Shown here: positions 6,690 to 63,515 of the stretch, piece by piece
How the letters are laid out: every line of letters starts with the position of its first letter
Position numbering within the stretch: the first letter of the stretch is position 1
Source of the DNA: Naegleria gruberi
Taxonomy: Eukaryota
Assembly: GCA_000004985.1 (NCBI GenBank)
Contig: GG738930.1
DNA: 64,000 bases
Direction: 5' to 3' (one strand)
Notes under the pieces: generated by a model
Told to the model about the DNA's origin: nothing
Seen by the model: the letters and a program-made list of their open reading frames with translations, nothing else
Databases searched by the model: none
Made by a program: the position numbers and the translations under genes

Positions 6690-6762
6690 TGGGGACTGTG
6701 AGGATCGAACTCACGACCTTAGGATTATGAGACCTACGCGCTACCGACTGCGCCAAGTCCCC
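6690..6762 (-). tRNA. tRNA-Met (CAT), elongator type
   Basis: The reverse complement folds by hand into a cloverleaf. Acceptor stem GGGGACT/AGTCCCC, D-arm GCGC-AGTCGGTA-GCGC, anticodon arm TAGGT-CTCATAA-TCCTA (anticodon CAT), T-arm GTGAG-TTCGATC-CTCAC, discriminator A, and no encoded CCA. Its 3' half is near-identical to eukaryotic elongator tRNA-Met. Confidence 0.85.
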
Positions 6763-7028
6763 TTACATGTATGTCCTTAATAATTAATTTTTCACCAATG
6801 AAATAACACATACTCTAAAAATGAGCACCAATTTTTTCCCTTATTTACTCAGATGTATCTTATCCTTATTGGTACTCAGGATCCTTCCAAATCTTTGCGA
6901 ACAAGGCAACCAGTTCAAAACGTTATGGCCACATCTTCACAACTTCACTACGCATCAAACAAAACCGCCTCTTCACTTGCCCTCAAATTCAACCCACAAC
7001 TTTCTATCAACACTATATTGAAAAAAAC

Positions 7029-18076: not shown

Positions 18077-20529
18077 ATAGAAATGGAATAGTTGGACGAA
18101 ACTTGGACTATGTCTCNNNNNNNNNNNNNNNNNNNNNNNNNNNNNNNNNNNNNNNNNNNNNNNNNNNNNNNNNNNNNNNNNNNNNNNNNNNNNNNNNNNN
18201 NNNNNNNNNNNNNNNNNNNNNNNNNNNNNNNNNNNNNNNNNNNNNNNNNNNNNNNNNNNNNNNNNNNNNNNNNNNNNNNNNNNNNNNNNNNNNNNNNNNN
18301 NNNNNNNNNNNNNNNNNNNNNNNNNNNNNNNNNNNNNNNNNNNNNNNNNNNNNNNNNNNNNNNNNNNNNNNNNNNNNNNNNNNNNNNNNNNNNNNNNNNN
18401 NNNNNNNNNNNNNNNNNNNNNNNNNNNNNNNNNNNNNNNNNNNNNNNNNNNNNNNNNNNNNNNNNNNNNNNNNNNNNNNNNNNNNNNNNNNNNNNNNNNN
18501 NNNNNNNNNNNNNNNNNNNNNNNNNNNNNNNNNNNNNNNNNNNNNNNNNNNNNNNNNNNNNNNNNNNNNNNNNNNNNNNNNNNNNNNNNNNNNNNNNNNN
18601 NNNNNNNNNNNNNNNNNNNNNNNNNNNNNNNNNNNNNNNNNNNNNNNNNNNNNNNNNNNNNNNNNNNNNNNNNNNNNNNNNNNNNNNNNNNNNNNNNNNN
18701 NNNNNNNNNNNNNNNNNNNNNNNNNNNNNNNNNNNNNNNNNNNNNNNNNNNNNNNNNNNNNNNNNNNNNNNNNNNNNNNNNNNNNNNNNNNNNNNNNNNN
18801 NNNNNNNNNNNNNNNNNNNNNNNNNNNNNNNNNNNNNNNNNNNNNNNNNNNNNNNNNNNNNNNNNNNNNNNNNNNNNNNNNNNNNNNNNNNNNNNNNNNN
18901 NNNNNNNNNNNNNNNNNNNNNNNNNNNNNNNNNNNNNNNNNNNNNNNNNNNNNNNNNNNNNNNNNNNNNNNNNNNNNNNNNNNNNNNNNNNNNNNNNNNN
19001 NNNNNNNNNNNNNNNNNNNNNNNNNNNNNNNNNNNNNNNNNNNNNNNNNNNNNNNNNNNNNNNNNNNNNNNNNNNNNNNNNNNNNNNNNNNNNNNNNNNN
19101 NNNNNNNNNNNNNNNNNNNNNNNNNNNNNNNNNNNNNNNNNNNNNNNNNNNNNNNNNNNNNNNNNNNNNNNNNNNNNNNNNNNNNNNNNNNNNNNNNNNN
19201 NNNNNNNNNNNNNNNNNNNNNNNNNNNNNNNNNNNNNNNNNNNNNNNNNNNNNNNNNNNNNNNNNNNNNNNNNNNNNNNNNNNNNNNNNNNNNNNNNNNN
19301 NNNNNNCAGTCAGCTCTCTCCATAGAAGTATCCAAAAATGATCTACAAAACCAATCAAAAGCCTCAGACATTGTCTCTCTATTGTAGAGGAAGAAAAGAA
19401 CTGGAAAATTTGTTGAAGTGTCGTTCAGTTGGGCAGGAGAGCTCAATTGAGAAATTGCTCTACCAGCATGATTTTCAAACATGTTTAAAAATTCCAAAAC
19501 AGATACATTCATGGTAGAATAGAGTTGTGTAGATTCTCCTACAACTTGTTTGTTTGGAACCTTGTACAAAAACTTTTGGGCAATAAAATCTTCAGTAACA
19601 GCTGGGAAGAATGATGAGGAAGATGCACTCAATACATTATTAATCAATGTTGTAACATAGCTGGTCTGAACAGTAGCTAAGGCATGAGCGGTACTTGCTG
19701 AAGATTCATTCAAATATCTATACCTAGCTTGAATAGAACGAATGTGATTGGCCATAATGCTTGGAGCACCAGCTATTGAGCAAATCTTTTCTTCTAACAC
19801 TGTTCTACTGGTAAATTCTGACGAAAAGACCAGAGACATTGTTAATAAAATTAATAAAACAAGGAATGAAACAATCACAAACGGTAAAAATGTGAAATAA
19901 TAGGATTTTCTGTGTTCTGGAGTGTTGATTGAATTTCTATAGAAGGCTTCTTGTTTCATTGATTCTTCCATTCTTGCACTGATCGAATCCCAGTTATCTA
20001 CAACTTCATCGAATGATACTCCATGTTTCAGAGTGTCTGATTTCCTTCTTTTCATAAGTGATGACTCTTCTGAGGCACTGGTATAAGGAACTACTCTATT
20101 ACTTTTTGAATGAGACTGCTTGTTGGTTTTGGATTTCTCTTCCTCAATTTGATTAGCCTCCTCATATAATTCATTGGCCACTTCAATCTCAAATCTAAAT
20201 ATCTCCAAAAAGTATGCGTAAGCTCTCAACAGGGTCTTGTTGTTCATATTGGTATACATGCAATTCTTGTATGCATTTTCACAAAATATTATCAAATTAT
20301 TGGATTTTCTGTTAATCTTTTCAAGTTTGTCCTCAGAAGGATTTTCACTGGAAAGCTCTTTGAAAAATTCCTGGTGCAATGCCAGTATCTGAGATTGTTT
20401 CTTATCGAGTCTCTCTAATAATTTTTTAACTTCATAACTAACATTAGCATAATTCTCAGAGTTGGCTTCAATCTCTTTGCATCTCAAAAAGTAATGGAAA
20501 ACTTGAACGAAATTTGGGTTTTGTTTCAA
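18073..20529 (-). CDS. PAS-cyclase paralogue, N-terminal part (C-terminal catalytic part lost in gap 18117-19306)
   Basis: About 70% identical to the gene at 14546..18076 over the N-terminal coiled region, the TM block and the FPVLFFLYNRETM segment. The first codon reported at 20529 is TTG, and an in-frame TGA lies 6 codons upstream. The conserved N-terminal block therefore has no in-frame ATG. The annotated 3' end at 18073 is a TGA that actually lies inside the downstream paralogue's 5' coding extension, in a different frame. Confidence 0.6.
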   Translation of the reverse strand: MKQNPNFVQVFHYFLRCKEIEANSENYANVSYEVKKLLERLDKKQSQILALHQEFFKELSSENPSEDKLEKINRKSNNLIIFCENAYKNCMYTNMNNKTLLRAYAYFLEIFRFEIEVANELYEEANQIEEEKSKTNKQSHSKSNRVVPYTSASEESSLMKRRKSDTLKHGVSFDEVVDNWDSISARMEESMKQEAFYRNSINTPEHRKSYYFTFLPFVIVSFLVLLILLTMSLVFSSEFTSRTVLEEKICSIAGAPSIMANHIRSIQARYRYLNESSASTAHALATVQTSYVTTLINNVLSASSSSFFPAVTEDFIAQKFLYKVPNKQVVGESTQLYSTMNVSVLEFLNMFENHAGRAISQLSSPAQLNDTSTNFPVLFFLYNRETMSEAFDWFCRSFLDTSMERADXXXXXXXXXXXXXXXXXXXXXXXXXXXXXXXXXXXXXXXXXXXXXXXXXXXXXXXXXXXXXXXXXXXXXXXXXXXXXXXXXXXXXXXXXXXXXXXXXXXXXXXXXXXXXXXXXXXXXXXXXXXXXXXXXXXXXXXXXXXXXXXXXXXXXXXXXXXXXXXXXXXXXXXXXXXXXXXXXXXXXXXXXXXXXXXXXXXXXXXXXXXXXXXXXXXXXXXXXXXXXXXXXXXXXXXXXXXXXXXXXXXXXXXXXXXXXXXXXXXXXXXXXXXXXXXXXXXXXXXXXXXXXXXXXXXXXXXXXXXXXXXXXXXXXXXXXXXXXXXXXXXXXXXXXXXXXXXXXXXXXXXXXXXXXXXXXXXXXXXXXXXXXXXXXXXXXXXXXXXXXXXXXXXXXXXXXXXXXXDIVQVSSNYSISI
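18117..19306. other. assembly gap (N run)
   Basis: 1190 n. Confidence 1.
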
Positions 20530-22735: not shown

Positions 22736-23349
22736 NNNNNNNNNNNNNNNNNNNNNNNNNNNNNNNNNNNNNNNNNNNNNNNNNNNNNNNNNNNNNNNNN
22801 NNNNNNNNNNNNNNNNNNNNNNNNNNNNNNNNNNNNNNNNNNNNNNNNNNNNNNNNNNNNNNNNNNNNNNNNNNNNNNNNNNNNNNNNNNNNNNNNNNNN
22901 NNNNNNNNNNNNNNNNNNNNNNNNNNNNNNNNNNNNNNNNNNNNNNNNNNNNNNNNNNNNNNNNNNNNNNNNNNNNNNNNNNNNNNNNNNNNNNNNNNNN
23001 NNNNNNNNNNNNNNNNNNNNNNNNNNNNNNNNNNNNNNNNNNNNNNNNNNNNNNNNNNNNNNNNNNNNNNNNNNNNNNNNNNNNNNNNNNNNNNNNNNNN
23101 NNNNNNNNNNNNNNNNNNNNNNNNNNNNNNNNNNNNNNNNNNNNNNNNNNNNNNNNNNNNNNNNNNNNNNNNNNNNNNNNNNNNNNNNNNNNNNNNNNNN
23201 NNNNNNNNNNNNNNNNNNNNNNNNNNNNNNNNNNNNNNNNNNNNNNNNNNNNNNNNNNNNNNNNNNNNNNNNNNNNNNNNNNNNNNNNNNNNNNNNNNNN
23301 NNNNNNNNNNNNNNNNNNNNNNNNNNNNNNNNNNNNNNNNNNNNNNNNN
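22736..23349. other. assembly gap (N run)
   Basis: 614 n. Confidence 1.
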
Positions 23350-42741: not shown

Positions 42742-43505
42742 NNNNNNNNNNNNNNNNNNNNNNNNNNNNNNNNNNNNNNNNNNNNNNNNNNNNNNNNNNN
42801 NNNNNNNNNNNNNNNNNNNNNNNNNNNNNNNNNNNNNNNNNNNNNNNNNNNNNNNNNNNNNNNNNNNNNNNNNNNNNNNNNNNNNNNNNNNNNNNNNNNN
42901 NNNNNNNNNNNNNNNNNNNNNNNNNNNNNNNNNNNNNNNNNNNNNNNNNNNNNNNNNNNNNNNNNNNNNNNNNNNNNNNNNNNNNNNNNNNNNNNNNNNN
43001 NNNNNNNNNNNNNNNNNNNNNNNNNNNNNNNNNNNNNNNNNNNNNNNNNNNNNNNNNNNNNNNNNNNNNNNNNNNNNNNNNNNNNNNNNNNNNNNNNNNN
43101 NNNNNNNNNNNNNNNNNNNNNNNNNNNNNNNNNNNNNNNNNNNNNNNNNNNNNNNNNNNNNNNNNNNNNNNNNNNNNNNNNNNNNNNNNNNNNNNNNNNN
43201 NNNNNNNNNNNNNNNNNNNNNNNNNNNNNNNNNNNNNNNNNNNNNNNNNNNNNNNNNNNNNNNNNNNNNNNNNNNNNNNNNNNNNNNNNNNNNNNNNNNN
43301 NNNNNNNNNNNNNNNNNNNNNNNNNNNNNNNNNNNNNNNNNNNNNNNNNNNNNNNNNNNNNNNNNNNNNNNNNNNNNNNNNNNNNNNNNNNNNNNNNNNN
43401 NNNNNNNNNNNNNNNNNNNNNNNNNNNNNNNNNNNNNNNNNNNNNNNNNNNNNNNNNNNNNNNNNNNNNNNNNNNNNNNNNNNNNNNNNNNNNNNNNNNN
43501 NNNNN
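42742..43505. other. assembly gap (N run)
   Basis: 764 n. Confidence 1.
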
Positions 43506-45872
43506 TCCAGAATTAGAAAAGTTGACGTTTCCACAGGTAAGATTTATACTGTAGCAGGTACTGGATCAGCCGGATTTTCTGGTGATGGAAGTCAAGCGTC
43601 ACTTGCCAAGATTAGCTCACCAAAAGGAATATTTTATTCCTCAATAGATGAATCTTTCTATTTTTCTGATAATGGAAATTCTCGTATCAGAAAATTAAGC
43701 TTTGATTACTGTCCATCATTTTATACTTTTGACAAGTCAACCAAGAAATGTCTTCCTCAATGTTTTGGAATTGACAATCAAGCATCAAATGTTTGTGGAG
43801 GTCATGGAGTTTGCATTGATGTGGATAATTGTACTTGCTCAACTGGATATTTTGGAGATAAATGTCAATATTTTGATTGCTCATTATCTGCCAATCAAAA
43901 TGATGTTTGTTTCAATGGAGGAAACTGTCCAGTTGGTGGAGGGTTGTGTGAATGTCAGTTGTCATTCACAGGTAATGGTTGTGAGCTACCTATTTGTTTT
44001 GACATTCCTTCAAATGAAACCAATGTTTGTTCATCACATGGAATATGCTCAAATCCAAATACTTGTTCATGCTCTTCCAATTGGTTTGGAGATTCATGTA
44101 ATATTTCAACATGTTTCGGATATTTTTCAAACGAAACTTTAGTTTGTTCATCTCATGGTTTATGTACCACTTACAACAAATGCGACTGTTTTAATGGTTG
44201 GGGAGGATCAACCTGTAGCTTACCTAAATGTAATGGAACTCTGTCTGGAGCTAGTTCTGTTTGTAACGGAAGAGGAAATTGTGTCTCAGTTGACCAATGC
44301 GATTGTTACAATGGATTTGGAGGTCAGTTTTGTGAAATTGTGAAATGTGGTGGAATTCTTGCGAATGAATCATCCACTTGTTCCAATCATGGTTTGTGTA
44401 TTGATGTTGACACTTGCATTTGTACAAATTCAAGTTTTGGTGGTCAATTGTGTAATATTTCCAAATGTGATGGGAAATTGGCAACTGACATATCTGTTTG
44501 TTATGGACATGGTTTTTGCGTTGATGGATTATGTATCTGTACTGACCAATCCTATGGAGGTCAATTTTGCAACATTTCCAAATGTAATGGAAAACTTTCA
44601 GTTGACTCGAATGTTTGTAGCAAGAATGGAAATTGTAATGAGCTTGGAAATTGTATTTGCAACACTAATTATGGAGGTATCGATTGTGAGCTACCTAAAT
44701 GTCATGGAATTTTACAAAATAATTTGACAGTTTGCAGTGGAAATGGAACTTGTCAATCGGTGGATTCATGCTTGTGTAACTCTGGATATTTTGGAGAAAA
44801 TTGTGAATTTTCTATTTGCTATGGAATTCCTTCTAATGATTCTAAAAGTTGCTCTGGAGTTGGTCAATGTATTTCTCCGAATAATTGCAAATGTCCTAGT
44901 CAACTGTGGACAGGTTTCGAATGTCAAGTGCCAATGTGCTTTTCTATCAATGGTACTGACTCTAGAGTATGCTCTAATGGAAGAGGTAGATGTGTTGGGG
45001 CTAATCAATGTGAATGTGAAACCAATTATTTTGGGTCGCAATGTCAGTTTACAACTTGTCAAGGAATTCAAAGTAATGACAGCTCTGTATGTTATGGACA
45101 CGGATCTTGTGAATCCTTCAACAATTGTACATGTTCTGATGGTTATGGACCTTCCAATTCATGTCAATACCCTATTTGTTTTGGAATTCTTGCTAACAAT
45201 GCTTCCGTCTGCAACTCTTCACAAATTTGTTTGGCACCTGACAGATGTGTTCCAAAAGATCCCATTTGCTACGGCAAGTTCAATAATGATTCAACTGTTT
45301 GCTCTTCACACGGTACTTGCCTTGACAATAATAATTGCAAATGCCAAAGTGGATATTTTGGAAATGAATGTCAATTGTGGAAATGTCATAACATTGATAT
45401 GAATGCAACCAACGTTTGTAATGGACCAAATGGACAATGTTCTTCTCCAAATAATTGTTCATGCACTATTGGATTTCTTGGATTGGAATGTGAAACACCA
45501 ACCTGTCAAGGAATTTCTGCATTAAATGTCAAGGTCTGTAATGGAAATGGCAGCTGTAATGGATTGGATAAGTGTGCCTGTAACCAGGGATGGTCAGGAT
45601 CTCAATGTGAAACACCACTTTGTAATGGAATTTCCTCCCAAGATTTAAAGGTTTGTTCTGGAAGAGGTAAATGTGCAGCACCTGACACCTGTCAATGCAA
45701 TGGAAAAGCATATGGAGCCAATTGTGAGCTAGTTCGGTCCACATCTACATTCAATAATGGGTCATCAGTTCCAACAGCTTCACATTCTGTTACCAGATTG
45801 AACGAATGTAGTTCTTTGGAAAGAATTTCATCGTTCTTATTTGCCATTTTGTTGCTTTTTCTTTTTCCTTAA
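43506..45872 (+). CDS. surface protein with NHL repeats followed by about 20 tenascin-type EGF repeats and a hydrophobic C-terminal tail; the N-terminus lies in gap 42742-43505
   Basis: The post-gap sequence SRIRKVDVSTGKIYTVAGTGSAGFSGDG..SPKGIFY..FYFSDNGNSRIRKL has the NHL-repeat signature. Repeats of about 31 aa follow, of the form C.G.G.C.....C.C..G(Y/F).G..C....C. The protein ends ..ISSFLFAILLLFLFP, which looks like a GPI-signal-like tail. Confidence 0.65.
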   Translation, partial: SRIRKVDVSTGKIYTVAGTGSAGFSGDGSQASLAKISSPKGIFYSSIDESFYFSDNGNSRIRKLSFDYCPSFYTFDKSTKKCLPQCFGIDNQASNVCGGHGVCIDVDNCTCSTGYFGDKCQYFDCSLSANQNDVCFNGGNCPVGGGLCECQLSFTGNGCELPICFDIPSNETNVCSSHGICSNPNTCSCSSNWFGDSCNISTCFGYFSNETLVCSSHGLCTTYNKCDCFNGWGGSTCSLPKCNGTLSGASSVCNGRGNCVSVDQCDCYNGFGGQFCEIVKCGGILANESSTCSNHGLCIDVDTCICTNSSFGGQLCNISKCDGKLATDISVCYGHGFCVDGLCICTDQSYGGQFCNISKCNGKLSVDSNVCSKNGNCNELGNCICNTNYGGIDCELPKCHGILQNNLTVCSGNGTCQSVDSCLCNSGYFGENCEFSICYGIPSNDSKSCSGVGQCISPNNCKCPSQLWTGFECQVPMCFSINGTDSRVCSNGRGRCVGANQCECETNYFGSQCQFTTCQGIQSNDSSVCYGHGSCESFNNCTCSDGYGPSNSCQYPICFGILANNASVCNSSQICLAPDRCVPKDPICYGKFNNDSTVCSSHGTCLDNNNCKCQSGYFGNECQLWKCHNIDMNATNVCNGPNGQCSSPNNCSCTIGFLGLECETPTCQGISALNVKVCNGNGSCNGLDKCACNQGWSGSQCETPLCNGISSQDLKVCSGRGKCAAPDTCQCNGKAYGANCELVRSTSTFNNGSSVPTASHSVTRLNECSSLERISSFLFAILLLFLFP

Positions 45873-45963
45873 TAAAGACTAGTTCTTTGTTTTCCACTTA
45901 ACCACTTATCATTTGCAGGGCTATGTATGTTGTTATTTGAATACTATTCTTAATGAATGTAAA

Positions 45964-46037
45964 GCCGTCATAGCTCAGTTGGATAGAGCACAGGACTTCT
46001 AATCCTGGGGTCGTGGGTTCGAGCCCCATTGTCGGTA
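45964..46037 (+). tRNA. tRNA-Arg (TCT)
   Basis: Hand fold: acceptor GCCGTCA/TGTCGGT (one U-U mismatch at 5-68 and a G-U at 1-72), D-arm GCTC-AGTTGGATA-GAGC, anticodon arm CAGGA-CTTCTAA-TCCTG (anticodon TCT), variable GGGTC, T-arm GTGGG-TTCGAGC-CCCAT, discriminator A. Confidence 0.75.
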
Positions 46038-46096
46038 ACTGTTTTTTCAATTGGAAACTTAGACTGGTAAACCTAACTATCCTTAAATGAATGTAA

Positions 46097-46183
46097 CCGA
46101 TGATAGCTCAGCTGGTAGAGCATGGGACTGTAGCAAGAAAAACTGTCATCCTGTGGTCGGCGGTTCGATTCCGTCTCATCGGA
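46097..46183 (+). tRNA. tRNA-Tyr (GTA) with a 14-nt intron (46134..46147) at the canonical 37/38 position
   Basis: Hand fold: acceptor CCGATGA/TCATCGG, D-arm GCTC-AGCTGGTA-GAGC, anticodon stem TGGGA, loop CTGTAG, then the intron CAAGAAAAACTGTC, then A and stem TCCTG. Variable TGGTC, T-arm GGCGG-TTCGATT-CCGTC, discriminator A. Eukaryotic tRNA-Tyr genes characteristically carry an intron at this site. Confidence 0.85.
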
Positions 46184-46375
46184 TAATTTTAACCTTAAAG
46201 CACTTCTTTTATCATTTGGAATTCATTGCAAACTGTAAACAATTCATCTTACAGCTTCTTTCCGAGATACTGTGAAAAGATTTACATTGTAATCAAGTCA
46301 ATACTGTCATTAACAAATACAATAGGCACCTGTAAGTATCTATTGAAAATAGATCTGTTGAATTTTGTTTTATAG

Positions 46376-46732
46376 GAATTACTTTCAGATAATCACAAAG
46401 GTAAAAGCACAAAAGTGGACGTTTATTCATTTGGAGTAATAATGTGGGAGCTATTATATGAAATATTACCATTTTCAAATCAAATTGATAACTCTACAAC
46501 TGTTTTCCAAATATTGATGAGAGTTGCAAAAGGACACAGGCCAGAACTGTTACATACAAAATCATTCAGTGAAAAACAAATTAATGAGTGGATTGAACAC
46601 AATTTTACAAAGAAACAGATCGAAGCTCTTGGAAAAAGTGAAATTATTGGATTTTTAGAATCATATGTTCAAATTATGGAAAGATGTTGGGCTCAGGATT
46701 CCTCACAAAGACCTGAATTTATTGCTTTTTAA
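46376..46732 (+). pseudogene. protein-kinase C-lobe fragment (subdomains VIII-XI only); probable truncated gene relic
   Basis: Translation from 46376 gives ELLSDNHKGKSTKVDVYSFGVIMWELL..PF..ILMRVAKGHRPEL..IMERCWAQDSSQRPEF. This is the APE to DVYSFG to CW..RP C-lobe of a TK/TKL-like kinase. There is no N-lobe: a clean acceptor-like site (tttgttttatag) sits at 46364-46375, yet only about 190 nt separate it from tRNA-Tyr. The track's first codon at 46415 is GTG. Confidence 0.5.
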
Positions 46733-47446
46733 ATCCTCGCTTCACTTTCCAAACTTGGAACTTTATTAATTTCATTGCTATGAAATTTCTGCATCTCTAC
46801 TACAGCTAATTATTTACAACTTTCGTCTATTCATATGTCTCTTTCACAAACAATCAGGAAATCACTGGTATTACATTTTATGTATTTCTTTGATTTTGTT
46901 AAGGGATATGACAGTAGTGGATAATGTTATTCGAATGATGAGACTAAAGTGAATATTATACATTATTGAAAGGAGATTTCCTAATAAACATTTGCATAAC
47001 TTACATACAACCATCACAACACATAATACATTATTCAAACTTCATATTTACAACAAAAACCTTTCATTCGAAACTGATTGGCTCAATTATCAGCAGTTCG
47101 ACATCCTAATCAATGAATTCACTCTGAAAACGTTCGAATAATCTCCAAAGATGTTCACTGAAGAGATGACAAATCCGCCAAATTTGAATTGAACGTGTCT
47201 ACAATCATCACTACAAATCTTACTTTCGTATAAAAATATTCATTTATTCGTACAAGATTGAACTTGCAATTGTATGAGACGAATCACGTCTTGAATTCCC
47301 ACTCACATCACCACTTGCAATGTTTATTCCCTCACTTCCCATCAAACAACCTATGAAACTCTGTTTACCCGCTCTCATTGTTCTGTGGAGATTAAAACCT
47401 CAACAAGCAGCAGCAGCAAATTAGCAACAAAAAACTACAAAAAAAT

Positions 47447-50400
47447 ATGAAGAAGAATTGCTTGTTGCAGGCTAGTGTGGGTCTTATTGTGGCGACTTTG
47501 TGTTGTATGGTAGCCTTTGAAGGCTTGGTTGTGGAGGCTGTTGTTCAACCTACTCCTACTGTGTCATTCGATTATCTTAGTGGCTTGAAGTTTAATTTCA
47601 CTCTCGGATTAAATCTTCAAGATAGTGGAAATGTTTGTAAGATTGGTGTCATTGATGGCATGTATTCATCTCTCAAGGCTCTTAATCAAAGCTCTAATTA
47701 TACATTGTATACTGTTCCTTGTATTGGTTCTTCAGTACTCAAGGTTCCATACTATGGTTATCCATTCACCAAATTCTTGTACAAGTATGACAATGTCAAA
47801 TATAGCTCGATTTCCAAAGAGTATTATGGTTATTTCCCAACCTTCTCTGCTGTTCTAGGTAATATCACTCANAGCAGTGTGGTTTATTCTANNNNNNNNN
47901 NNNNNNNNNNNNNNNNNNNNNNNNNNNNNNNNNNNNNNNNNNNNNNNNNNNNNNNNNNNNNNNNNNNNNNNNNNNNNNNNNNNNNNNNNNNNNNNNNNNN
48001 NNNNNNNNNNNNNNNNNNNNNNNNNNNNNNNNNNNNNNNNNNNNNNNNNNNNNNNNNNNNNNNNNNNNNNNNNNNNNNNNNNNNNNNNNNNNNNNNNNNN
48101 NNNNNNNNNNNNNNNNNNNNNNNNNNNNNNNNNNNNNNNNNNNNNNNNNNNNNNNNNNNNNNNNNNNNNNNNNNNNNNNNNNNNNNNNNNNNNNNNNNNN
48201 NNNNNNNNNNNNNNNNNNNNNNNNNNNNNNNNNNNNNNNNNNNNNNNNNNNNNNNNNNNNNNNNNNNNNNNNNNNNNNNNNNNNNNNNNNNNNNNNNNNN
48301 NNNNNNNNNNNNNNNNNNNNNNNNNNNNNNNNNNNNNNNNNNNNNNNNNNNNNNNNNNNNNNNNNNNTATGCAATGAAAAATGGTTATGTATTGCTAACG
48401 AAACTTCAACTTGTTTCGGTAAGAATAGTACCGATAGTTCTGTTTGCTCAGGACATGGTACTTGTTCTGCAGGAGTTTGTAAATGCAGTCCTGGTTACAC
48501 TGGTGGCAATTGTTCTCTTCCAATTTGTTTCTCACTTGATGCCTCTGAATTTGGTGTTTGTTATGGCAATGGTAAATGTGTAGGACCTGACACTTGTAAG
48601 TGTGACTCTCTCTTCTCTGGAATGGAATGTGAAACACCAACTTGTAATGGTAAGACAGAACTCGATGGTGGTTGTTCATTCCGTGGTACTTGTAATTCCT
48701 ACTCTCACTTGTGTGAATGTAAAGGAAACTTTGCTGGATCATCTTGTTCATCTTGTAAAAGTGGTTTCACTGGTACAAGTTGTGAAATTCCAATTTGTAA
48801 TGGTATTAGCTCAATTGACAAGTCAGTTTGTAATGGAAGGGGATCCTGTTCTTCAGTCAATGGTTCATCTCCAGTGTGTGTCTGTTCAGGAAATTATTAC
48901 GGTGCAAACTGTGGTTCCTTCAAATGTAATGGTCTTGAAAGATCCAACTCTTCAGTCTGTTCTTCAAGAGGTTCATGTCTTTCACCTGATACTTGCTCAT
49001 GTAAAGGAAACTACGATCCTGCCTCATACTGTTCCAAATGTCTTCCTTCATACTCTGGTTCTGATTGTACTGTTGCAGTGTGTGATAGTGCAACTACTTG
49101 TAATAGTAAGGGTACTTGTAATGACAAGCTTCAATGTGTTTGTAGTGGAAACTACGCTGGTACATATTGTGACAAGTGTAAAGATGGTTTTGTAGGTACA
49201 TCTTGTCAATACTCATGTTCTGCTGCTACTACTTGTAATGGCAAAGGTACTTGTTCTCAAATTGGTGAATGTATCTGTTCTGGAAATACTAATGGAAAGA
49301 AATGTGAGAATTGTAATGCTGGTTGGTATGGAGATAAGTGTGATTTCAATATTGATACTACTTCTTTCGAATTTAATGAGAATGGTGATTCTATCATTGC
49401 TACTGTTAAGAGCAGTATCAAGAAGAAGATTTCATGCTCTTCTCTCATTACTAATACTCATGTATTAGGAAGTGAACCTTCCTGTTTGTTGGATGGTGAG
49501 AAGAGTCAATTGGTTATTCAACTTGGTCCAATGGCAACTATTGTTATTGGTGGTAGTTTGAGTGTTAGAGCATACATTGATAGTAGTTCAGTTTCTTCTG
49601 TAACTGTTAAGGGCACCAACTACAAGTCTGTTGAGCCATCTGCTTATTTAACTTCTGACATTTCTTCTATTGCTTGTGGTAATATGATTTTGGACTCTTC
49701 TGCTTCATCCTCATTGGATAGAAGACAATTGATTTTCAGTTATTCAGCAACTCTTGCTCCTTCTAATCAAGATATTACACTTCTTAACTCACTTATTAGT
49801 GGCTCTACTGACAGCTTTGTCAAATTCCCAGTTAGTCAATTAAGTGCTGGTACCTATTCCGTCCAAGTTGCTGTACAAAGCTCATTCTCTGGAAAAGTTT
49901 CATATGCTACTTATACTTTCTCAGTTACTGAATCATCTCCTCCAACTTTGACCATTAGAAATGGTGCTTCTAGTTCAATTACTATCGGTAATTCATTGGC
50001 TATTGTTCCAGTTGTTACATTCCCATCTTGTTATCGTGGAAATCCATCCGCAAGTAGTTTGAAATACACCTACACTCAAACAAGTGGTCCAAGTCTTCAA
50101 ATCAAGCAAAAGAATGAACTTTTGGTCTTTAGCTCAGATTATACTCAACTTACCGAAGAAGGTGACTATGTATTCACTTTGAAGGCATCTGAGCCTGGAT
50201 ATCCAGAAGCATCAGTTTCATTCAAGGTTTCAGCATCTGCTCTCCCATTACAAGTTTCTTTCAATATTAGAGATATGAGTCAATCTTTGGAAGACAATGT
50301 CAAGTTTAGAATTACAAAGAAAGATCCAAGCAATCCTACTTCTACAGATGGTCAAGTTAAACTTACTTGTACTGATTTGGAGACTTTAGCTTCATGCACT

Positions 50401-52356
50401 GGTTTTGACAATGGATTGAATATTGATCAATCAACTTTGTTGTTCGATAAGCAATTTACACCTGGTAGCTACATGTTCACTGCTGTTTTCAGCAAGTCTT
50501 CAAGATCTTCAAGTACTTCAGTCAAGGTAATTGTCACTAGTCAAACTAAGGCAACTTCAGTAAGAATTTACATTGATACTCCTTCAGGATCTGATGTTTC
50601 AGCTATTGATCCATCCAATGATTTGATCTTGCAAGCACAAAGCTTGGATCTTCTCTCCCCTCAAAGAGTATTCTCTTGGTCTTCCAGTGACTTTACCTTT
50701 GATTCTACTATTGATTTAACAAAGAAATATTTAACAATTCCAAAGAGTTTACTTGCTCCAGGTGCTTCATACTCTGTCTCTATTACTGTCACTGATGGTG
50801 TCAAGACTGGTCAAGCCAGTATTTCATTCATCGTTAATGCTCCACCATCCTTAGGTATTTTTGAAGTTTCTCCATCTACAGGTGTAGCTTTAGTTGATGA
50901 ATTCAAAGTTTCATGTGGTAATGGTTGGTCAGATTCTCAACTTCCTCTTTCATTCAAATTCGTGTTCAGACAAAAGGGAGAAGAAATTTGGAAGGTATTG
51001 AAAGAAAAGTCTGAAACAAGATCTTTCAGAACTTCCATGCCAACTGGTCAATTGGAAATCAAGGCTATTGTTTATGATGCTAAGGGCGCTTTCACTGAAA
51101 CCACTTCAAATATTAATGTCACTACTCCAGTTGATGTTAGTTCAGCTATTCAATCTTTGTCCGTGTTGACTACTTCTACCTTGACTCCTTCCTCTGCTTC
51201 ATCAGCTTTGAGTGTCATTTTGGCAGTTAAACCAACCACAGCTGAAGATAAACAAAAATTGGTGGCAGCTGGTTTGAAGATTGTTCAAGCATACTTTGCT
51301 CAAATGGATGCTGAACAAAATGTCACTTCCCAAACAGAAGCTTCAACAAGTTCATCCTTGTCTGTTATTTCCTCAGTCAGTACTTGTGTTGAAAATCTTC
51401 CAGACGAAACTGTTAGTTTGACCATTACCAAATTCAAAGCAATGATTGAAGGTGCTTACTTGCTTCTCAAACTTGCAAGTCAAGATATCAACTCAGCACT
51501 TGACAGCGCTGCTTCAATTCAAACTCACGTTTCCAAGAAGGTCACTTCAAGATCTGTACTTTTCACTAAAGACGAAGTCAAGAGCATTGATTCTATCAAG
51601 GATACATTACTTTCACTCCAATTGAAGAATGCAGTTCCTGATATGCCTGCAACAAGAACATTCGGATCTGATTCTTTCTCTTATGCAAGATTACTCAGTG
51701 TTTCTACATTGAGCAGCTTGAATGAAACCATCAATTCAGTTTCATCATTCAAACTCTCTGCAACATTCAACAGTTTGAGTCAAGTTTCAAGCTTGGATAA
51801 TGTCAAATTAGTTATGAAAGTTCAAACTCAAGCTAAGGCAGTTTCCAAACTAGTTACTTTCAGAGTAGAATCCAATGATGTAGATGTTGGTGTTTCATCC
51901 AATTCCAATACCACCTACATTGCTGAATTCAATATTGAAAAGAATCCATCAACTAGAAATATTAGAGAAACTAGAAATGTATGTTCAGTATTACAAAATG
52001 GTGTTTTGGTTGCAGCAAGTGGATGTACCATTTCTTCAACATCTGGTGGAATGTTCACCATTCAAGTTTCTTCATCTGGATCTTATGCCGTTGTCAGTGA
52101 AGAAGTTGTTGCTCCACAAGCTTCTCCAAAAACTAGCTCATCAAAGACAACCACCGTGATTACAACCAAATCAAACAATCTTGAATACCTTGCCTTCCTC
52201 GTTTTACTCGTTCCAGTAATTGCTGTCGTTGTTATCATTATTATTGTGGTTGTGTGCTGTCTCAGAAAGAAGAAGACTAAATACACGAAAGGACAACATG
52301 AAAGAAACTTTGAAGACAAGTCATTCATGGAATTGAATGAAATGAGAGAAATTTAA
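47447..52356 (+). CDS. type I membrane protein: signal peptide, EGF-like repeat array, long Ser/Thr-rich ectodomain, single C-terminal TM and short basic tail; spans gap 47892-48367
   Basis: ATG at 47447 with signal peptide (LLQASVGLIVATLCCMVAFEG). After the gap, my hand translation from 48370 is stop-free and already in the EGF frame (CNEKWLCIANETSTCFGKNSTDSSVCSGHGTCSAGVCKCSPGYTGGNCS..). It continues into ORF 48622..52356 with about 13 C.G.G.C.....C.C.G.(Y/F).G..C EGF units. A roughly 1000-aa S/T-rich region follows, then TM LAFLVLLVPVIAVVVIIIIVVVCCL and then RKKKTKY... Confidence 0.65.
47892..48367. other. assembly gap (N run)
   Basis: 476 n, plus a single n at 47872. Confidence 1.
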
Positions 52357-54772: not shown

Positions 54773-56743
54773 TTAGTCGACATCAACATCTTCGAATTTT
54801 GGTTGAGCACCAGATGGAGGAGCATCATCGGAAGAACCAGCACCAGCAGCACCGGCACCTGGGAAACCACCAGCACCTGGGAAGCCACCTTCAGCACCTG
54901 GCATACCACCAGCACCTTGGTACAACTTGGAAATGATTGGAGCACACTTGCCTTCCAATTCCTTTTGCTTAGCTTCGAATTCTTCCTTAGAAGCAGTTTG
55001 GTTGTTATCAATCCAGTTAATAGCAGCTTCACAAGCTTCCTTAATAGTCTTCTTGTCAGATTCTGGGATCTTACCAGCAAGGTTTGGATCTTCAACAGTT
55101 GACTTCATTTGATAAGCATATGATTCCAAATGATTCTTAGCTTCAACCTTCTTTCTCAATTCATCATCTTGAGCCTTCATGTTTTCAGCTTGTCTCAACA
55201 TTTCGTCAATTTCTTCCTTTGACAATCTACCCTTATCGTTAGTGATGGTAATATTTTCAGTCTTACCAGAAGATTCATCCTTAGCAGCAACCTTCATGAT
55301 ACCGTTAGCATCAATTTCGAAAGTAACTTCAATCTTTGGAACACCTCTTGGTGCAGGTGGAATACCTTCAAGATTGAATTTACCCAACAAGTGGTTATCC
55401 TTAGTCATGGTTCTTTCACCTTCATAAACTTGAATGGTGACAGCAGTTTGGTTGTCAGCATAAGTAGTGAAGATTTGAGACTTCTTACAAGGGATAGTAG
55501 TATTTCTTTCAATCAATTTAGTCATGACACCACCAGCAGTTTCAATACCCAAAGACAATGGAGTAACGTCGATCAACAAGACTCTAGTTTCCTTACCAGT
55601 CAAAACACCAGCTTGAACAGCAGCACCATAAGCAACAGCTTCATCAGGATTGATGGACTTGCAGAGTTCCTTACCATTGAAGAATTCCTTAAGCATTTCT
55701 TGAACCTTTGGAATACGAGTAGAACCACCGACCAAAACGACATCATCAATTTGTGATTTATCCAAACCAGAATCTTGGAGAACCTTCTTAACTGGTTCGA
55801 AACAATTTCTGAACATATCCATATTCATTTGTTCGAATTTAGCACGAGTCATAGTAATATCCAAATCAATACCATCCATAATAGAATCAACATTGATAGA
55901 AGCGTTAGCAGCAGAAGACAAATTTCTCTTAGCTCTTTCACAAGAAGTTCTTAATCTTCTCAAAGCTCTTGGATTTTCTTGGAGATCCTTCTTGTGCTTT
56001 CTCTTGAATTCTTGGCAACAGAAATCGACCATTCTGTTATCGAAATCTTCACCACCCAAGTGAGTATCACCAGCAGTAGCCTTAACTTCGAAAACACCAT
56101 CTTCAATGTTCAAGATGGAAACATCGAAAGTACCACCACCCAAATCGAAGATCAAAACGTTTCTTTCGCCCTTCTTGTTCAAACCATAAGCAATAGCAGC
56201 AGCAGTTGGTTCGTTGATAATTCTCAAAACTTCCAAACCAGCAATAGCACCGGCATCTTTGGTAGCTTGTCTTTGAGAGTCGTTGAAGTAAGCTGGGACA
56301 GTAACAACAGCCTTCTTAACTTGCTTACCCAAATATTGTTCGGCAATATCTCTCATCTTGGTCAAAACCATTGATGAAACTTGTTCTGGAGTGAAAGTGT
56401 GAGTTTCATTCTTGTATTCAACTTGAATGTATGGCTTATCGTCACCCTTGGTGATAACCTTGAAAGGCCAGTGCTTCATGTCTGATTGAACTGAAGAATC
56501 AGTGAATTTTCTACCAATCAAACGCTTAGCATCGAAAACTGTATTGTGTGGGTTCATGGCAACTTGATTCTTAGCAGCATCACCGATTAAACGTTCTTCA
56601 TCAGTGAAAGCAACATAAGATGGAGTGGTTCTGTTACCTTGATCGTTTGGAACAATTTCGACGTTGTCTCCCATATAAACACCGACGCAAGAGTATGTTG
56701 TACCCAAATCGATACCGATGGCACCGTCAAAAACACCTGACAT
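54773..56743 (-). CDS. HSP70: heat shock protein 70, cytosolic (DnaK/HSPA family)
   Basis: [60 protein letters not shown]. The Gly-rich tail and the C-terminal ..FEDVDVD are an EEVD-like cytosolic signature. The track start at 56779 is TTG, so I corrected the start to the first ATG (rc of 56741-56743). Confidence 0.9.
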
Positions 56744-60990: not shown

Positions 60991-63515
60991 ATGCCAAAAG
61001 TCACACCAGTCTTGGAAGAGAAACAAAACGGCATTGAATATCTTCAAGAAGCAACTTCATGCAATCAATCACTTCTCGAGGAATCTCAAATCAAACAAAG
61101 AAATTCCATTCTCTCATGCATTCTCAGTATCAGATTATTCCTCATTGCCATGATCACTCTAGTTGTCCTATTAACTTCAGTTTCGATTTGGGTAACTGCC
61201 TACACGATGAATGAACAGGCAGCAATGGAACAAGTCAATATCGTTATTGATAATATGAATGAAAAGATTGCAACTTTTGTAAATGGTCAACTGATTCCTG
61301 CCAAATATGTTGCTGATTCAATGGTTAATGATTATCATAGAGGATACATTGATTTAACAGATTCAATTAGAGAATACTTGTTTGATAGGATTAGTACGTT
61401 TGGTGTTTCGGTTACTAATCTGTGTTTCGGTGAAGGAGGTTACAATACTTTGTTTGCTTATTCAGTTTATGCTGATGGAAGTATAACATATGGAACAAAG
61501 AGACAAAATGAGAATCTTTTCGTATACAAAGCCAATAGAACTACTGGTGAATACTACATTGACAAGCCCACTATTAATAATATGACCTATACTATTAGAA
61601 ATACTGATTATTACACTGAATCAATTGCTCTGGTTGACAAGTATCCAAATGGAGCTTTTGGAGCACCTTACAAAGTGTTGAATGGTCCTCAGTCCACCTA
61701 TTGGAGCACTCCTGTGTATAATAGAACTGAATTACCACAAAAGAAGAATAGAATTGGTTTTGCAAAGATTAATATTTCATTGGCAGCCATAGCTCAATTT
61801 CTATCAAATGTCAAAGTCATGGAACGTGGTTATGTGATTATTTCAGAATATGGAAATGATTATGTCATTGGAAGTTCTCTCAATATTCCAGGTATTGACG
61901 ATCGCAGAATCAAAATGACCAACATTACCACAAGAAGCGCAGGAAGCATCATGTCAAAGTTATTGAACTTCCAAAAGGTAAATTCACTCAATAACACTGC
62001 AAAAATAGTCACTTCACTCATGAATGAGAATGGTGAAAGCTATCTAGTTGCTTCCTCTCCCTATATCTTTCATAATTTACAATGGAGAATGACTCTCATC
62101 TTTGACGAAACTGAAATTAAAAAGGGAATCATTCAGAGCAGTTATGTAATCCTTGGAGTTTCTATTGGAGTTAGTATTTTGGGAATTATTGTGAGTGTTG
62201 TTATTGGTTGGTCAGTTACTAGTCCGTTTTTTAAATTGCAAACAGATTTCAAAAATATTGAAATTCTTGATCTTGTCAATGTCAAACCAAGAAGTTCCAT
62301 ATTTAGTGAAGCAAATGCAATTTATTCGAGTTTAACAGAGACTGTAAGATGGTTGGCGGAGATTAGAGCATTCATTCCTGACTCGATTTTGAATCAATTA
62401 GAAAGAACAAAATTTATGAAAGAAGGTAATCCTGAGAATAAGAAGGATAACTCAACCTTTGATCCTGGAATGTCATACATAGCTAGTTCACAAACATTGC
62501 AACGGGTAGGTGAACTGAAAAGTGGAATTTCGAATTATTCCAGTAGAATTTCCAAAACTTCTTCAGGAAAACCACAAGATGTCACAAATAATTTATTCAA
62601 AATTGGACTTTCCTTAAGAGATTGCTCAATAATTTACATGACAGTTCCAAATCTTGATGAAAATCATTATGACCTTTCGTCTGGTTTACTTTCCAATTTA
62701 ATTTCCAAAGCACTCACTTCCATTTCAAGTATTTGCAAAACGTGTAAAGCAGATTTCCAAATCAAGTCATTTAATGAATTTATGATTTTATTCTCAGATA
62801 AGAAATCATCTGTAACCGCATTGGAAACCTCTTTAAAAATTCTCACCTTACTGAACTCGTTGAATGAGAGTATTCAAAGGATGGCNNNNNNNNNNNNNNN
62901 NNNNNNNNNNNNNNNNNNNNNNNNNNNNNNNNNNNCCCCACTATTATGGGAAATGTAGGAAGTAAGCAGATGCGTTACTTTGCCACCTTGGGTCCAGTCA
63001 TGAATAGAGCAAAGGAATTGAATGAAATTGCTCAAATGTTGAACGTTCAAGTTATTGTTGATCAGACTACTGCACAGTTGACCAAAGATTCTGTCATTTT
63101 TAGACCTGTGGAGAGGATTCTAGAGGATTCTCAGCGAATTCAAACAGTATATCAACTCTTACGAAAGAATACTATTAGAGATGATGAATGGTTATATGAA
63201 CTGGAACAAAAGAAAGCAAATGCTGAGTTTGATCAGTTCAATTCAGACTTCAGTAAGATTTTTGAGTCAGTTGATAATGAATTCGGCAATGAGAATGGAT
63301 TAGACTCTGTACTCTCTAGATTGACTGAATATTCACAGAGTAATCCAAACGATCTGGTCATAAAGAGATTAGAACAAATCCTCTCCGAAAGTAAGTTAAA
63401 GGGTGAGTCCTTCTTCACCAAATATCACACACAACTGGCTAAGCAATTAGTTAGCTATGTGAGACCTGGTGAGCTAATTCAATCTTCAATGATTTATCAA
63501 AGAGATGGACAATAA
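60991..63515 (+). CDS. receptor-type sensor + degenerate cyclase-homology protein, paralogue of 35858..38233; spans 50-nt gap 62886-62935
   Basis: ATG at 60991. Co-linear similarity to 35858..38233 from the N-terminal TM (LIAMITLVVLLTSVSIWVTAYTMNEQAAMEQV vs LIIVITLLVIATALSIWIAAYKVNEQAALEAV) through to the C-terminal DEWLYELEQKKANAEF block. ORFs 60991..62958 and 62946..63515 are one gene split by the small gap. Confidence 0.6.
62886..62935. other. assembly gap (N run)
   Basis: 50 n. Confidence 1.

What the first reader, a model, noticed from the sequence alone, without database searches (positions are those of the whole stretch)
46376..46732. Orphan protein-kinase C-lobe immediately downstream of the tRNA-Arg/tRNA-Tyr pair
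An APE..DVYSFG..CW..RP kinase C-terminal lobe is encoded with no N-lobe anywhere in the 500 bp upstream, which holds the two tRNAs and then the stop of the EGF gene. It is preceded by a perfect acceptor-like tract (tttgttttatag) and a GTAAGT donor at 46332. Read as splice sites, these would imply a 6-nt microexon GCACCT encoding the A-P of APE, but nothing kinase-like lies further upstream. Most likely it is a gene relic truncated by rearrangement near the tRNA genes. It could instead be a terminal exon of a gene with distant 5' exons, or an exon used by trans-splicing.
Basis: seen in the sequence. Interest (0 to 1): 0.5.

Follow-up and report, generated by a model that had tools for sequence, protein, structure and literature searches.

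The report
Young truncated kinase gene fragment beside tRNAs
The orphan half-kinase is a 418-base piece of an otherwise intact receptor-type kinase gene, cut off at both ends and lying next to two tRNA genes, so it is most likely a very young dead gene fragment and biologically ordinary.

Summary
Window 46376-46732 encodes a protein-kinase C-lobe (Pfam E 2e-9). It lies 123 bp downstream of a tRNA-Arg(TCT)/tRNA-Tyr(GTA) pair. No N-lobe lies anywhere in the sequenced parts of the 64-kb window.

The key evidence is a 1030-bp metagenome contig (L001) from another strain of the same species. It carries the intact gene: ...HR|DLKPGN...DFG...TLLYM | AP | ELLSDNHKG...RPEFIEIIDLLEEL...stop. Its introns are 45, 47 and 44 nt.

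Window 46307-46724 matches L001 434-851 at 417 of 418 bases. Homology stops abruptly at both ends. The 5' break is inside the intron before the microexon. The 3' break is one base into the codon after RPEFI, and the new flank adds Ala-Phe-stop.

The window holds only a doubly truncated piece with no start codon, N-lobe, HRD or DFG.

Best reading: a very recent DNA-level fragment, an unprocessed pseudogene piece, probably inserted during break repair in the intergenic DNA beside the tRNA genes. Distant 5' exons and trans-splicing are not supported. An assembly artefact cannot be fully excluded. Interest is low.

The parts
43506..45872 (+). 3' part of the upstream neighbour gene (context, not part of the relic). 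It encodes a secreted NHL plus teneurin-type EGF-repeat protein ending in a hydrophobic tail (...SSFLFAILLLFLFP*). The stop is at 45870-45872. The ORF continues 5' across an assembly gap (42742-43505).
   Evidence: ORF list. Pfam EGF_2 at 9.8e-51 and EGF_TEN at 1.6e-50. The closest named homologues are Naegleria gruberi and N. lovaniensis at 36-39% identity.
45964..46037 (+). tRNA-Arg (anticodon TCT). It is followed by a T6 run.
   Evidence: ARAGORN. Rfam RF00005 at 65.2 bits.
46097..46183 (+). tRNA-Tyr. The anticodon GTA is at 46130-46132 and a 14-nt intron at 46134-46147.
   Evidence: Rfam RF00005 at 54.8 bits with a 17-nt insertion in the anticodon loop. The anticodon and intron positions come from my own reading of the sequence.
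46307..46325 (+). The last 19 nt of the parent gene's intron 2 (tcattaacaaatacaatag), with a branch-point-like CATTAAC and the acceptor. The 5' breakpoint of the fragment lies at 46306/46307.
   Evidence: blastn of L001 434-851 against window 46307-46724. Junction sequences. No homology further upstream.
46326..46331 (+). 6-nt microexon GCACCT, encoding Ala-Pro of the APE motif.
   Evidence: The L001 splice model gives ...TLLYM|AP|ELLS... in frame. Pfam Pkinase matches the spliced product as one stretch, E 1.3e-43. The homologue profile gains 14.4 bits with the microexon. The second residue (Pro) is kept in 9 of the 10 aligned sequences.
46332..46375 (+). Complete intron 3 of the parent gene (44 nt, GTAAGT...TATAG, phase 0).
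   Evidence: A relative (L003) has an intron at the same position and phase.
46376..46724 (+). The first 349 nt of the parent's last exon. It encodes the kinase C-lobe from E of APE through DVYSFG, the family-specific insert and CW...RPEFI. There is one difference from L001, at 46683 (G versus A, Arg versus Lys). The 3' breakpoint lies at 46724/46725.
46725..46732 (+). Sequence from the unrelated flank. It completes codon G|CT (Ala), adds TTT (Phe) and then the TAA stop. It replaces the parent's EIIDLLEEL... tail.
   Evidence: Junction comparison. P0001 and L001 show the natural continuation.

Best explanation
Window 46307-46724 is a 418-bp piece of a receptor-like TKL-type protein kinase gene. 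It was copied or moved at the DNA level and is truncated at both ends. It holds the 3' end of one intron, a 6-nt microexon, a whole 44-nt intron and 349 nt of the last exon.

The piece sits in intergenic DNA, 123 bp downstream of tRNA-Tyr and 722 bp upstream of the next gene. It has no start codon, glycine loop, catalytic lysine, HRD or DFG. It cannot make a kinase, so it is an unprocessed pseudogene fragment.

It is essentially identical to the intact gene seen in another strain, so it arrived very recently.

The most likely route (inferred, not shown) is capture of a stray genomic fragment during end-joining repair of a chromosome break. The junctions are blunt, share no homology, and show no target-site duplication or terminal repeats. 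tRNA genes are known replication-fork pause sites and fragile sites (background knowledge), which could explain the location. The tRNA link may equally be coincidence.
For: Shown:
- The C-lobe identity is significant.
- Contig L001 carries the intact gene. Its spliced product is a continuous kinase domain (Pfam Pkinase E 1.3e-43, one stretch).
- Window 46307-46724 equals L001 434-851 at 417 of 418 bases.
- Local alignment of the flanks beyond both junctions scores no better than shuffled sequence.
- The same metagenome assembly also holds L002, which equals window 40460-42656 at 98.9% identity, with 5 synonymous changes in 1617 coding bases. It is therefore the same species but a different strain. 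One change in 418 bases is no more than strain-level divergence.
- No N-lobe, HRD or DFG lies on either strand of the window apart from an unrelated kinase at 3452-4238.
- No ATG lies between tRNA-Tyr and the fragment, and stop codons lie in frame just upstream of the microexon.
- Introns are retained and there is no poly(A), so the origin is DNA, not cDNA.
- No target-site duplication or terminal inverted repeat was found. The only inverted repeat touching a junction is within chance, since 14% of random 50-mers score as well.

Precedent: in the Entamoeba histolytica EhTMKB1 transmembrane-kinase family, 35 members were counted at 95% identity or more, and only 6 are full length (PMC2880585 abstract, seen).
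Against: - The parent gene was found only in another strain's metagenome contig, not in the genome the window comes from. Copy-and-insert cannot be separated from excision, or from two-sided truncation in place.
- The junctions have no independent support. The window's versions of the local ORFs, the EGF tail and the N-terminus of the next gene are all absent from the protein collection.
- Near-identity to the parent is also what an assembly error would give.
- The repair mechanism and the role of the tRNA genes are inferences from junction anatomy alone.
Confidence: 0.7

Rival explanations
1. Assembly artefact. The 418 bp belong only to the intact kinase gene elsewhere in the genome and were wrongly placed here by the assembler or a gap-closing step in this heavily gapped draft scaffold.
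For: - The window has 10 runs of N, including a 1-N gap at 47872 that looks like partial gap closing.
- The piece is indistinguishable from the parent gene.
- L001 runs unbroken through both breakpoints, so the metagenome assembly graph shows no sign of a second copy. Coverage there is patchy, so this is weak evidence.
- No independent contig supports the junctions.
Against: - Two false junctions 418 bp apart, with no shared sequence at either, are hard to produce. Graph assemblers join through shared k-mers, so each junction should exist in reads. That reasoning is inference.
- The piece lies 1.1 kb and 2.8 kb from the nearest gaps, inside a 4366-bp gap-free contig.
Confidence: 0.13
2. Relic in place. 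The intact kinase gene originally lay here, and two separate deletions or replacements, one on each side, removed everything but 418 bp.
For: - tRNA genes lie directly upstream, and both neighbours belong to surface-receptor gene families.
- Relatives of the kinase are receptor-like, with large ectodomains.
- The data cannot tell where the parent gene lies in this genome.
Against: - It needs two independent recent events within one gene. Divergence from the intact allele is only 1 in 418.
- Nothing else from L001 occurs anywhere in the window, neither the 433 bp upstream nor the 179 bp downstream.
- The EGF gene ends with its own stop and a hydrophobic tail, with no kinase remnants after it.
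Confidence: 0.1
3. Functional terminal exons. The retained branch point, acceptor, microexon and intron let the piece be spliced onto transcripts that start far upstream, for example read-through from the EGF-repeat gene across the tRNA genes, or onto a trans-spliced partner.
For: - The 3' splice region of intron 2, the microexon and intron 3 are intact.
- A phase-0 GTATGT lies inside the EGF coding sequence at 45087.
Against: - Known introns of this gene are 44-47 nt, whereas a splice from 45087 would need 1239 nt.
- The product would be half a kinase domain without any catalytic residues, and it also lacks the last helix.
- The GTATGT at 45087 simply encodes Val-Cys in an EGF repeat.
- No kinase N-lobe lies in the window.
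Confidence: 0.04
4. Cargo of a mobile element that captures gene fragments (Pack-MULE-like or Helitron-like) or that targets tRNA genes (as the Dictyostelium TRE elements and yeast Ty3 do).
For: The location is 123 bp downstream of a tRNA gene, and a gene fragment with its introns is carried.
Against: - No terminal inverted repeats, target-site duplication, poly(A) or element-derived ORF was found.
- The flanks have no other copy in the window and no Pfam match.
Confidence: 0.03

Closest known systems
Unprocessed (duplicative) pseudogene fragments of expanded kinase families, e.g. the truncated EhTMKB1 transmembrane-kinase copies of Entamoeba histolytica (PMC2880585)
   Same: It is a near-identical partial copy of a receptor-like kinase gene. 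It keeps intron sequence, lacks essential domains, and occurs in a protist with a large family of such kinases.
   Different: Only a single 418-bp piece was seen here. Whether the source genome holds many such pieces is unknown. The parent was seen only in another strain.
Capture of stray DNA fragments at double-strand breaks repaired by end joining (yeast mitochondrial-DNA and Ty cDNA capture; 'filler' or templated insertions). This comparison rests on background knowledge.
   Same: It is a short insert with blunt junctions and no homology, duplication or terminal repeats, placed in intergenic DNA.
   Different: No empty site was available to prove an insertion. The break and the repair pathway are inferred.
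Naegleria-type receptor-like TKL kinases (hypothetical proteins of N. lovaniensis and N. fowleri; RIPK and TAK1 are the nearest solved structures)
   Same: The encoded C-lobe has the family's DVYSFG..IMWE motif, the insert with RP...EW, and CW..RP. Identity of the parent's N-terminal kinase part to the Naegleria proteins is 50-54%.
   Different: The window copy lacks the ectodomain, the membrane span, the N-lobe, the catalytic loop, the activation-loop start and the last helix.
tRNA-gene-targeted retroelements (Dictyostelium TRE5/TRE3, yeast Ty3)
   Same: Foreign DNA lies about 100 bp from a tRNA gene.
   Different: There is no retroelement sequence, no poly(A) and no duplication. Introns are retained, so no RNA intermediate was involved.
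Very short microexons flanked by short introns
   Same: A 6-nt exon encodes two conserved residues, bounded by canonical GTAAGT...YAG introns of 47 and 44 nt.
   Different: In the window the microexon is only a fossil inside the fragment. Its use is inferred from the parent gene's reading frame, not from RNA.

Membership tests
Protein kinase catalytic domain (Pfam PF00069 / PF07714) | N-lobe with glycine-rich loop and the VAIK lysine | tested here: not met
   Pfam matches cover only profile positions 167-253 and 180-251. No such motif or tblastn match lies on the + strand of the window.
Protein kinase catalytic domain (Pfam PF00069 / PF07714) | Catalytic loop HRDLKxxN and the DFG motif | tested here: not met
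   Both are present in the parent (L001: HRDLKPGN, DFG). Both are absent from the window.
Protein kinase catalytic domain (Pfam PF00069 / PF07714) | C-lobe motifs: APE, DxWSxG-type (DVYSFG), and the subdomain XI arginine (CW...RP) | tested here: met
   Translation, Pfam and alignment A1. The AP of APE is supplied only by the microexon.
Unprocessed (DNA-level) pseudogene fragment | Homology to an intact gene that includes intron sequence | tested here: met
   417 of 418 bases match L001 across 19 nt of intron 2, the microexon, the 44-nt intron 3 and 349 nt of exon.
Unprocessed (DNA-level) pseudogene fragment | Loss of the start codon or essential parts, with a reading frame closed by foreign sequence | tested here: met
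   Sharp breaks lie at 46306/46307 and 46724/46725. In-frame stops lie upstream, and Ala-Phe-stop comes from the new flank.
Unprocessed (DNA-level) pseudogene fragment | An intact parent gene in the same genome | not testable with these tools
   The parent was seen only on an ENA metagenome contig from another strain of the species. The rest of the source genome is not available.
Unprocessed (DNA-level) pseudogene fragment | Not transcribed or spliced into a functional mRNA | not testable with these tools
   No RNA data are available.
Processed (retro-) pseudogene | Introns removed and a poly(A) tail at the 3' end | tested here: not met
   Intron 3 and part of intron 2 are retained. The 3' end lies inside the coding sequence and has no A-run.
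Transposon-captured gene fragment (Pack-MULE / Helitron type) | Terminal repeats or a hairpin, and a target-site duplication | tested here: not met
   Repeat search. The junction inverted repeat is within chance.
Naegleria-type receptor-like TKL kinase family | Ectodomain, membrane span, juxtamembrane segment and kinase domain in one gene | tested here: not met
   Relatives have this architecture (L004; P0019). The window piece has only part of the kinase domain. The 5' part of the parent itself is unknown because L001 starts inside the kinase domain.
Naegleria-type receptor-like TKL kinase family | Family-specific C-lobe insert (G.RP.... EW ...) between subdomains X and XI | tested here: met
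   Alignment A1 has R57, P58 and W74 invariant.
tRNA genes (Rfam RF00005) | Cloverleaf scoring above the gathering threshold | tested here: met
   65.2 and 54.8 bits against a threshold of 29.

The most novel reading that the evidence does not exclude
The fragment is not dead. Because it keeps a complete branch point, acceptor, microexon and intron, it could serve as a spliceable 3' cassette, for example for read-through transcripts that cross the two tRNA genes. Alternatively it could act as a silent donor cassette that exchanges C-lobe sequence with full-length receptor-kinase genes by gene conversion. Gene conversion would also explain why it stays identical to its parent.
Probability: 0.04. 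Interest if true: 0.6.

Novelty: new member of a known kind. Interest (0 to 1): 0.17.

Why it matters
It matters little beyond annotation. The piece should be marked as a pseudogene fragment, not as a gene or as the last exon of a hidden gene.

Two small points may be useful:
- It documents a genuine 6-nt microexon, encoding the A-P of the kinase APE motif between 47- and 44-nt introns, in a Naegleria-like protist. A gene predictor would need to model this.
- It is a dated example, no older than strain divergence, of small gene-fragment insertion beside tRNA genes. If the pattern recurred across the genome, it would say something about break repair and the turnover of large receptor-kinase families in these amoebae.

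Tried and rejected
- Extended, diverged homology beyond the junctions, which would indicate an old pseudogene refreshed by gene conversion. Local alignment scores equal those of shuffles.
- An inverted repeat spanning the 5' junction (46299-46322 against 46890-46919). 14% of random 50-mers from the region do as well, so I dropped it.
- Independent support for the junctions in the metagenome of the same species:
  - Exact look-ups of the window's 71-aa, 105-aa and 62-aa ORFs found nothing.
  - The EGF search threshold (1e-40) was too strict to catch short fragments.
  - A chimeric query of EGF tail, next-gene N-terminus and parent N-lobe was swamped by kinases. A full-length identical match to either of the first two parts would have topped the list, and none appeared.
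- An exact 27-mer across the microexon in JGI metagenomes gave 0 hits.
- A profile scan of JGI metagenomes returned only distant kinases at 35% identity or less, which is uninformative.
- Identifying the organism or project:
  - PRJEB11402, ERR1078381 and ERZ929261 do not appear in the paper library. A guessed accession (ERP012803) hit only unrelated American Gut papers.
  - Exact look-ups of the window's 683-aa ORF, Hsp70 and the 538-aa protein were not on record or not in the cluster table.
  - The organism is therefore only inferred to be Naegleria-like.
- A hidden relic in the 722 bp downstream of the fragment. The small ORFs there have no Pfam match.
- The bacterial promoter and terminator scan has no bearing on a eukaryote.

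Full report
**Setting**

The window is a draft eukaryotic scaffold at about 33% G+C. It has ten runs of N, at 7222-7473, 12975-14053, 18117-19306, 22736-23349, 33500-34191, 39634-40449, 42742-43505, 47872, 47892-48367 and 62886-62935. The finding lies inside a gap-free contig, 43506-47871.

The organism was not identified. The closest named homologues of the upstream EGF-repeat protein are from Naegleria gruberi and N. lovaniensis, at 36-39% identity. The closest named homologues of the kinase are from N. lovaniensis and N. fowleri, at 50-54%. A Naegleria-like heterolobosean is therefore an inference.

**Checking the observation**

- The frame 46376-46732 reads ELLSDNHKGKSTKVDVYSFGVIMWELL...CWAQDSSQRPEFIAF*.
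- It matches only the C-terminal third of the Pfam kinase profiles. PK_Tyr_Ser-Thr gives E 2.1e-9 over positions 180-251 of 258. Pkinase gives E 2e-8 over positions 167-253 of 263.
- RIPK4, TAK1 and RIPK2 are the nearest solved structures.
- tRNA-Arg(TCT) lies at 45964-46037.
- An intron-containing tRNA lies at 46097-46183, Rfam 54.8 bits. I read it as tRNA-Tyr, with anticodon GTA at 46130-46132 and a 14-nt intron at 46134-46147.
- The EGF-repeat ORF stops at 45870-45872.
- The GTAAGT at 46332, the acceptor ending at 46375, and GCACCT at 46326-46331 behind caatag are all present.
- A motif scan and tblastn with the spliced parent and ten family members find kinase-like coding sequence only at 46286-46768 (+). 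The one other kinase is unrelated and lies on the minus strand at 3452-4238.

**The decisive evidence**

A protein search with the C-lobe returned one hit, P0001, at 99% identity. It continues past RPEFI as EIIDLLEELQSQ....

P0001 is encoded on a 1030-bp ENA metagenome contig, L001 (ERZ929261, run ERR1078381). L001 carries an intact kinase gene from subdomain IV onward:

| Element | L001 coordinates | Content |
|---|---|---|
| Exon | 1-230 | ...IIHR |
| Intron 1 | 231-275 | 45 nt, GTATGT...TACAG |
| Exon | 276-405 | DLKPGNILLD...VGDFGLSK...TLLYM |
| Intron 2 | 406-452 | 47 nt, GTAAGT...AATAG |
| Microexon | 453-458 | GCACCT (Ala-Pro) |
| Intron 3 | 459-502 | 44 nt |
| Last exon | 503-979 | to the stop codon |

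The spliced product matches Pfam Pkinase as a single stretch, positions 54-258, E 1.3e-43. A profile built from eight homologues scores it 300.9 bits with the microexon and 286.5 bits without. In alignment A1 the second of the two residues before the invariant E of APE is Pro in 9 of the 10 sequences.

A relative from a JGI metagenome, L003, has a phase-0 intron at the same place after AP and none before it.

**What the window holds**

- blastn aligns L001 434-851 to window 46307-46724 at 417 of 418 identical bases and nothing else.
- The single difference is at 46683, G versus A, giving Arg versus Lys at a variable position.
- Upstream and downstream of these limits, the best local alignments score no better than shuffled sequence.
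- The 5' break lies in intron 2, 19 nt before the microexon. The window reads ...CAATACTG|TCATTAAC, and L001 reads ...TTGTGAAT|TCATTAAC.
- The 3' break lies one base into the codon after RPEFI. The window reads ...TTTATTG|CTTTTTAAATCC, and L001 reads ...TTTATTG|AAATTATTG.
- The unrelated flank supplies Ala-Phe-stop, which explains the oddly early end of the ORF.
- The piece is 123 bp from the end of tRNA-Tyr and 722 bp from the ATG of the next gene.
- No ATG lies between tRNA-Tyr and the piece, and stops lie in frame just upstream of the microexon.

**Age**

The same ENA assembly also contains L002, which equals window 40460-42656 at 98.9% identity. Its encoded protein is identical, with five synonymous changes in 1617 coding bases and more changes and indels in the flanks.

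The metagenome organism is therefore the same species but another strain or haplotype. One change in 418 bases is no more than strain-level divergence. The fragment is effectively identical to its parent, so it is either very young, kept identical by gene conversion, or an artefact.

**Origin**

Introns are retained and there is no poly(A), which excludes a cDNA origin. No target-site duplication, terminal inverted repeat or other copy of the flanks was found. One inverted repeat touching the 5' junction is within chance. The small ORFs in the flanks have no Pfam match.

Two breakpoints only 418 bp apart, with unrelated sequence on both sides, are explained more simply by insertion of a small fragment than by two independent truncations of a resident gene. 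Blunt junctions without homology fit end-joining capture of a stray fragment at a chromosome break. This step is inferred. tRNA genes are known pause sites and fragile sites (background knowledge), but the association here may be coincidence.

**Could it be an artefact?**

The scaffold is a gapped draft, and I could get no independent contig across the junctions. Even so, two false junctions with no shared sequence, well inside a 4.4-kb contig, are unlikely for assemblers that join through shared k-mers. I put this rival at about 0.13.

**Could it be functional?**

The piece would encode at most a third of a kinase domain. It lacks every catalytic motif and the last helix. The parent's introns are 44-47 nt, whereas the nearest strong in-phase donor upstream (45087, inside an EGF repeat) would require a 1239-nt intron. 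I rate functional use at about 0.04.

**Comparison with known things**

- Relatives of the parent are receptor-like kinases. On L004 a 695-codon ORF encodes a large ectodomain, a membrane span and a juxtamembrane segment ending in GEGK, followed by the kinase. P0019 has an N-terminal membrane span.
- Large families of such genes with many truncated, near-identical copies are documented in Entamoeba histolytica. EhTMKB1 has 35 members at 95% identity or more, of which only six are full length (PMC2880585 abstract).
- The window piece fails the tests for a kinase (no N-lobe, HRD or DFG), for a processed pseudogene, and for a transposon-captured fragment.
- It meets the testable criteria of an unprocessed pseudogene fragment.

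**Verdict**

The feature is an ordinary, very young, doubly truncated gene fragment. Interest is low, at 0.17. The only mildly notable items are the 6-nt microexon of the parent gene and the position beside two tRNA genes.

Noticed in passing
window 45952-45962 and 46086-46096; also 6763-6771 (minus strand): The identical 11-mer AATGAATGTAA lies directly 5' of both tRNA-Arg and tRNA-Tyr. tRNA-Met (6690-6762, minus strand) has ACATGTAAG in the same place. This may be a Pol III upstream or start-site element in this organism. The 11-mer is not over-represented in the window as a whole.
   Followed up: partly
window 46097-46183: tRNA-Tyr carries a 14-nt intron after position 37. ARAGORN missed it in the mode used, and only the Rfam model found it.
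   Followed up: yes
L001 453-458 (equals window 46326-46331); L003 about 610-662: The parent kinase gene uses a 6-nt microexon between introns of 47 and 44 nt. A relative (L003) has only the intron after AP. The microexon therefore arose by gain of a second intron 6 nt upstream, or the others lost it.
   Followed up: partly
L004 1-3002: A 63%-identical relative of the kinase is the cytoplasmic part of a receptor-like gene. It has a large repeat-rich ectodomain, one membrane span and a juxtamembrane segment, with an intron inside the glycine loop (GEGK|).
   Followed up: partly
window 47447-52356 (+): The downstream neighbour is a large surface protein with a signal peptide, EGF repeats, a REJ domain (Pfam E 4.4e-42) and a C-terminal membrane span. 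It is interrupted by the assembly gap at 47892-48367.
   Followed up: no
window 40824-42440 (-): A 538-aa secreted-looking protein is made of Gly/Lys-rich repeats (..GKGQ..L..LNK.TGGKSK..) and has no Pfam match. The protein is identical in the other strain (L002), although the flanking DNA differs.
   Followed up: no
window 3452-4238 (-), ORFs 2405-3574 and 3816-4709: An unrelated Ser/Thr kinase (VAIKVIDKK ... DFG/DLG) lies on the minus strand, apparently split by at least one intron.
   Followed up: no
window 54776-56743 (-): A complete cytosolic-type Hsp70 gene without introns (Pfam E 1.8e-262).
   Followed up: no
window 47872 and 47873-47891: A single N is followed by a 19-base island and then a 476-N gap. 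This looks like a trace of partial gap closing and is relevant to how far the local assembly can be trusted.
   Followed up: no
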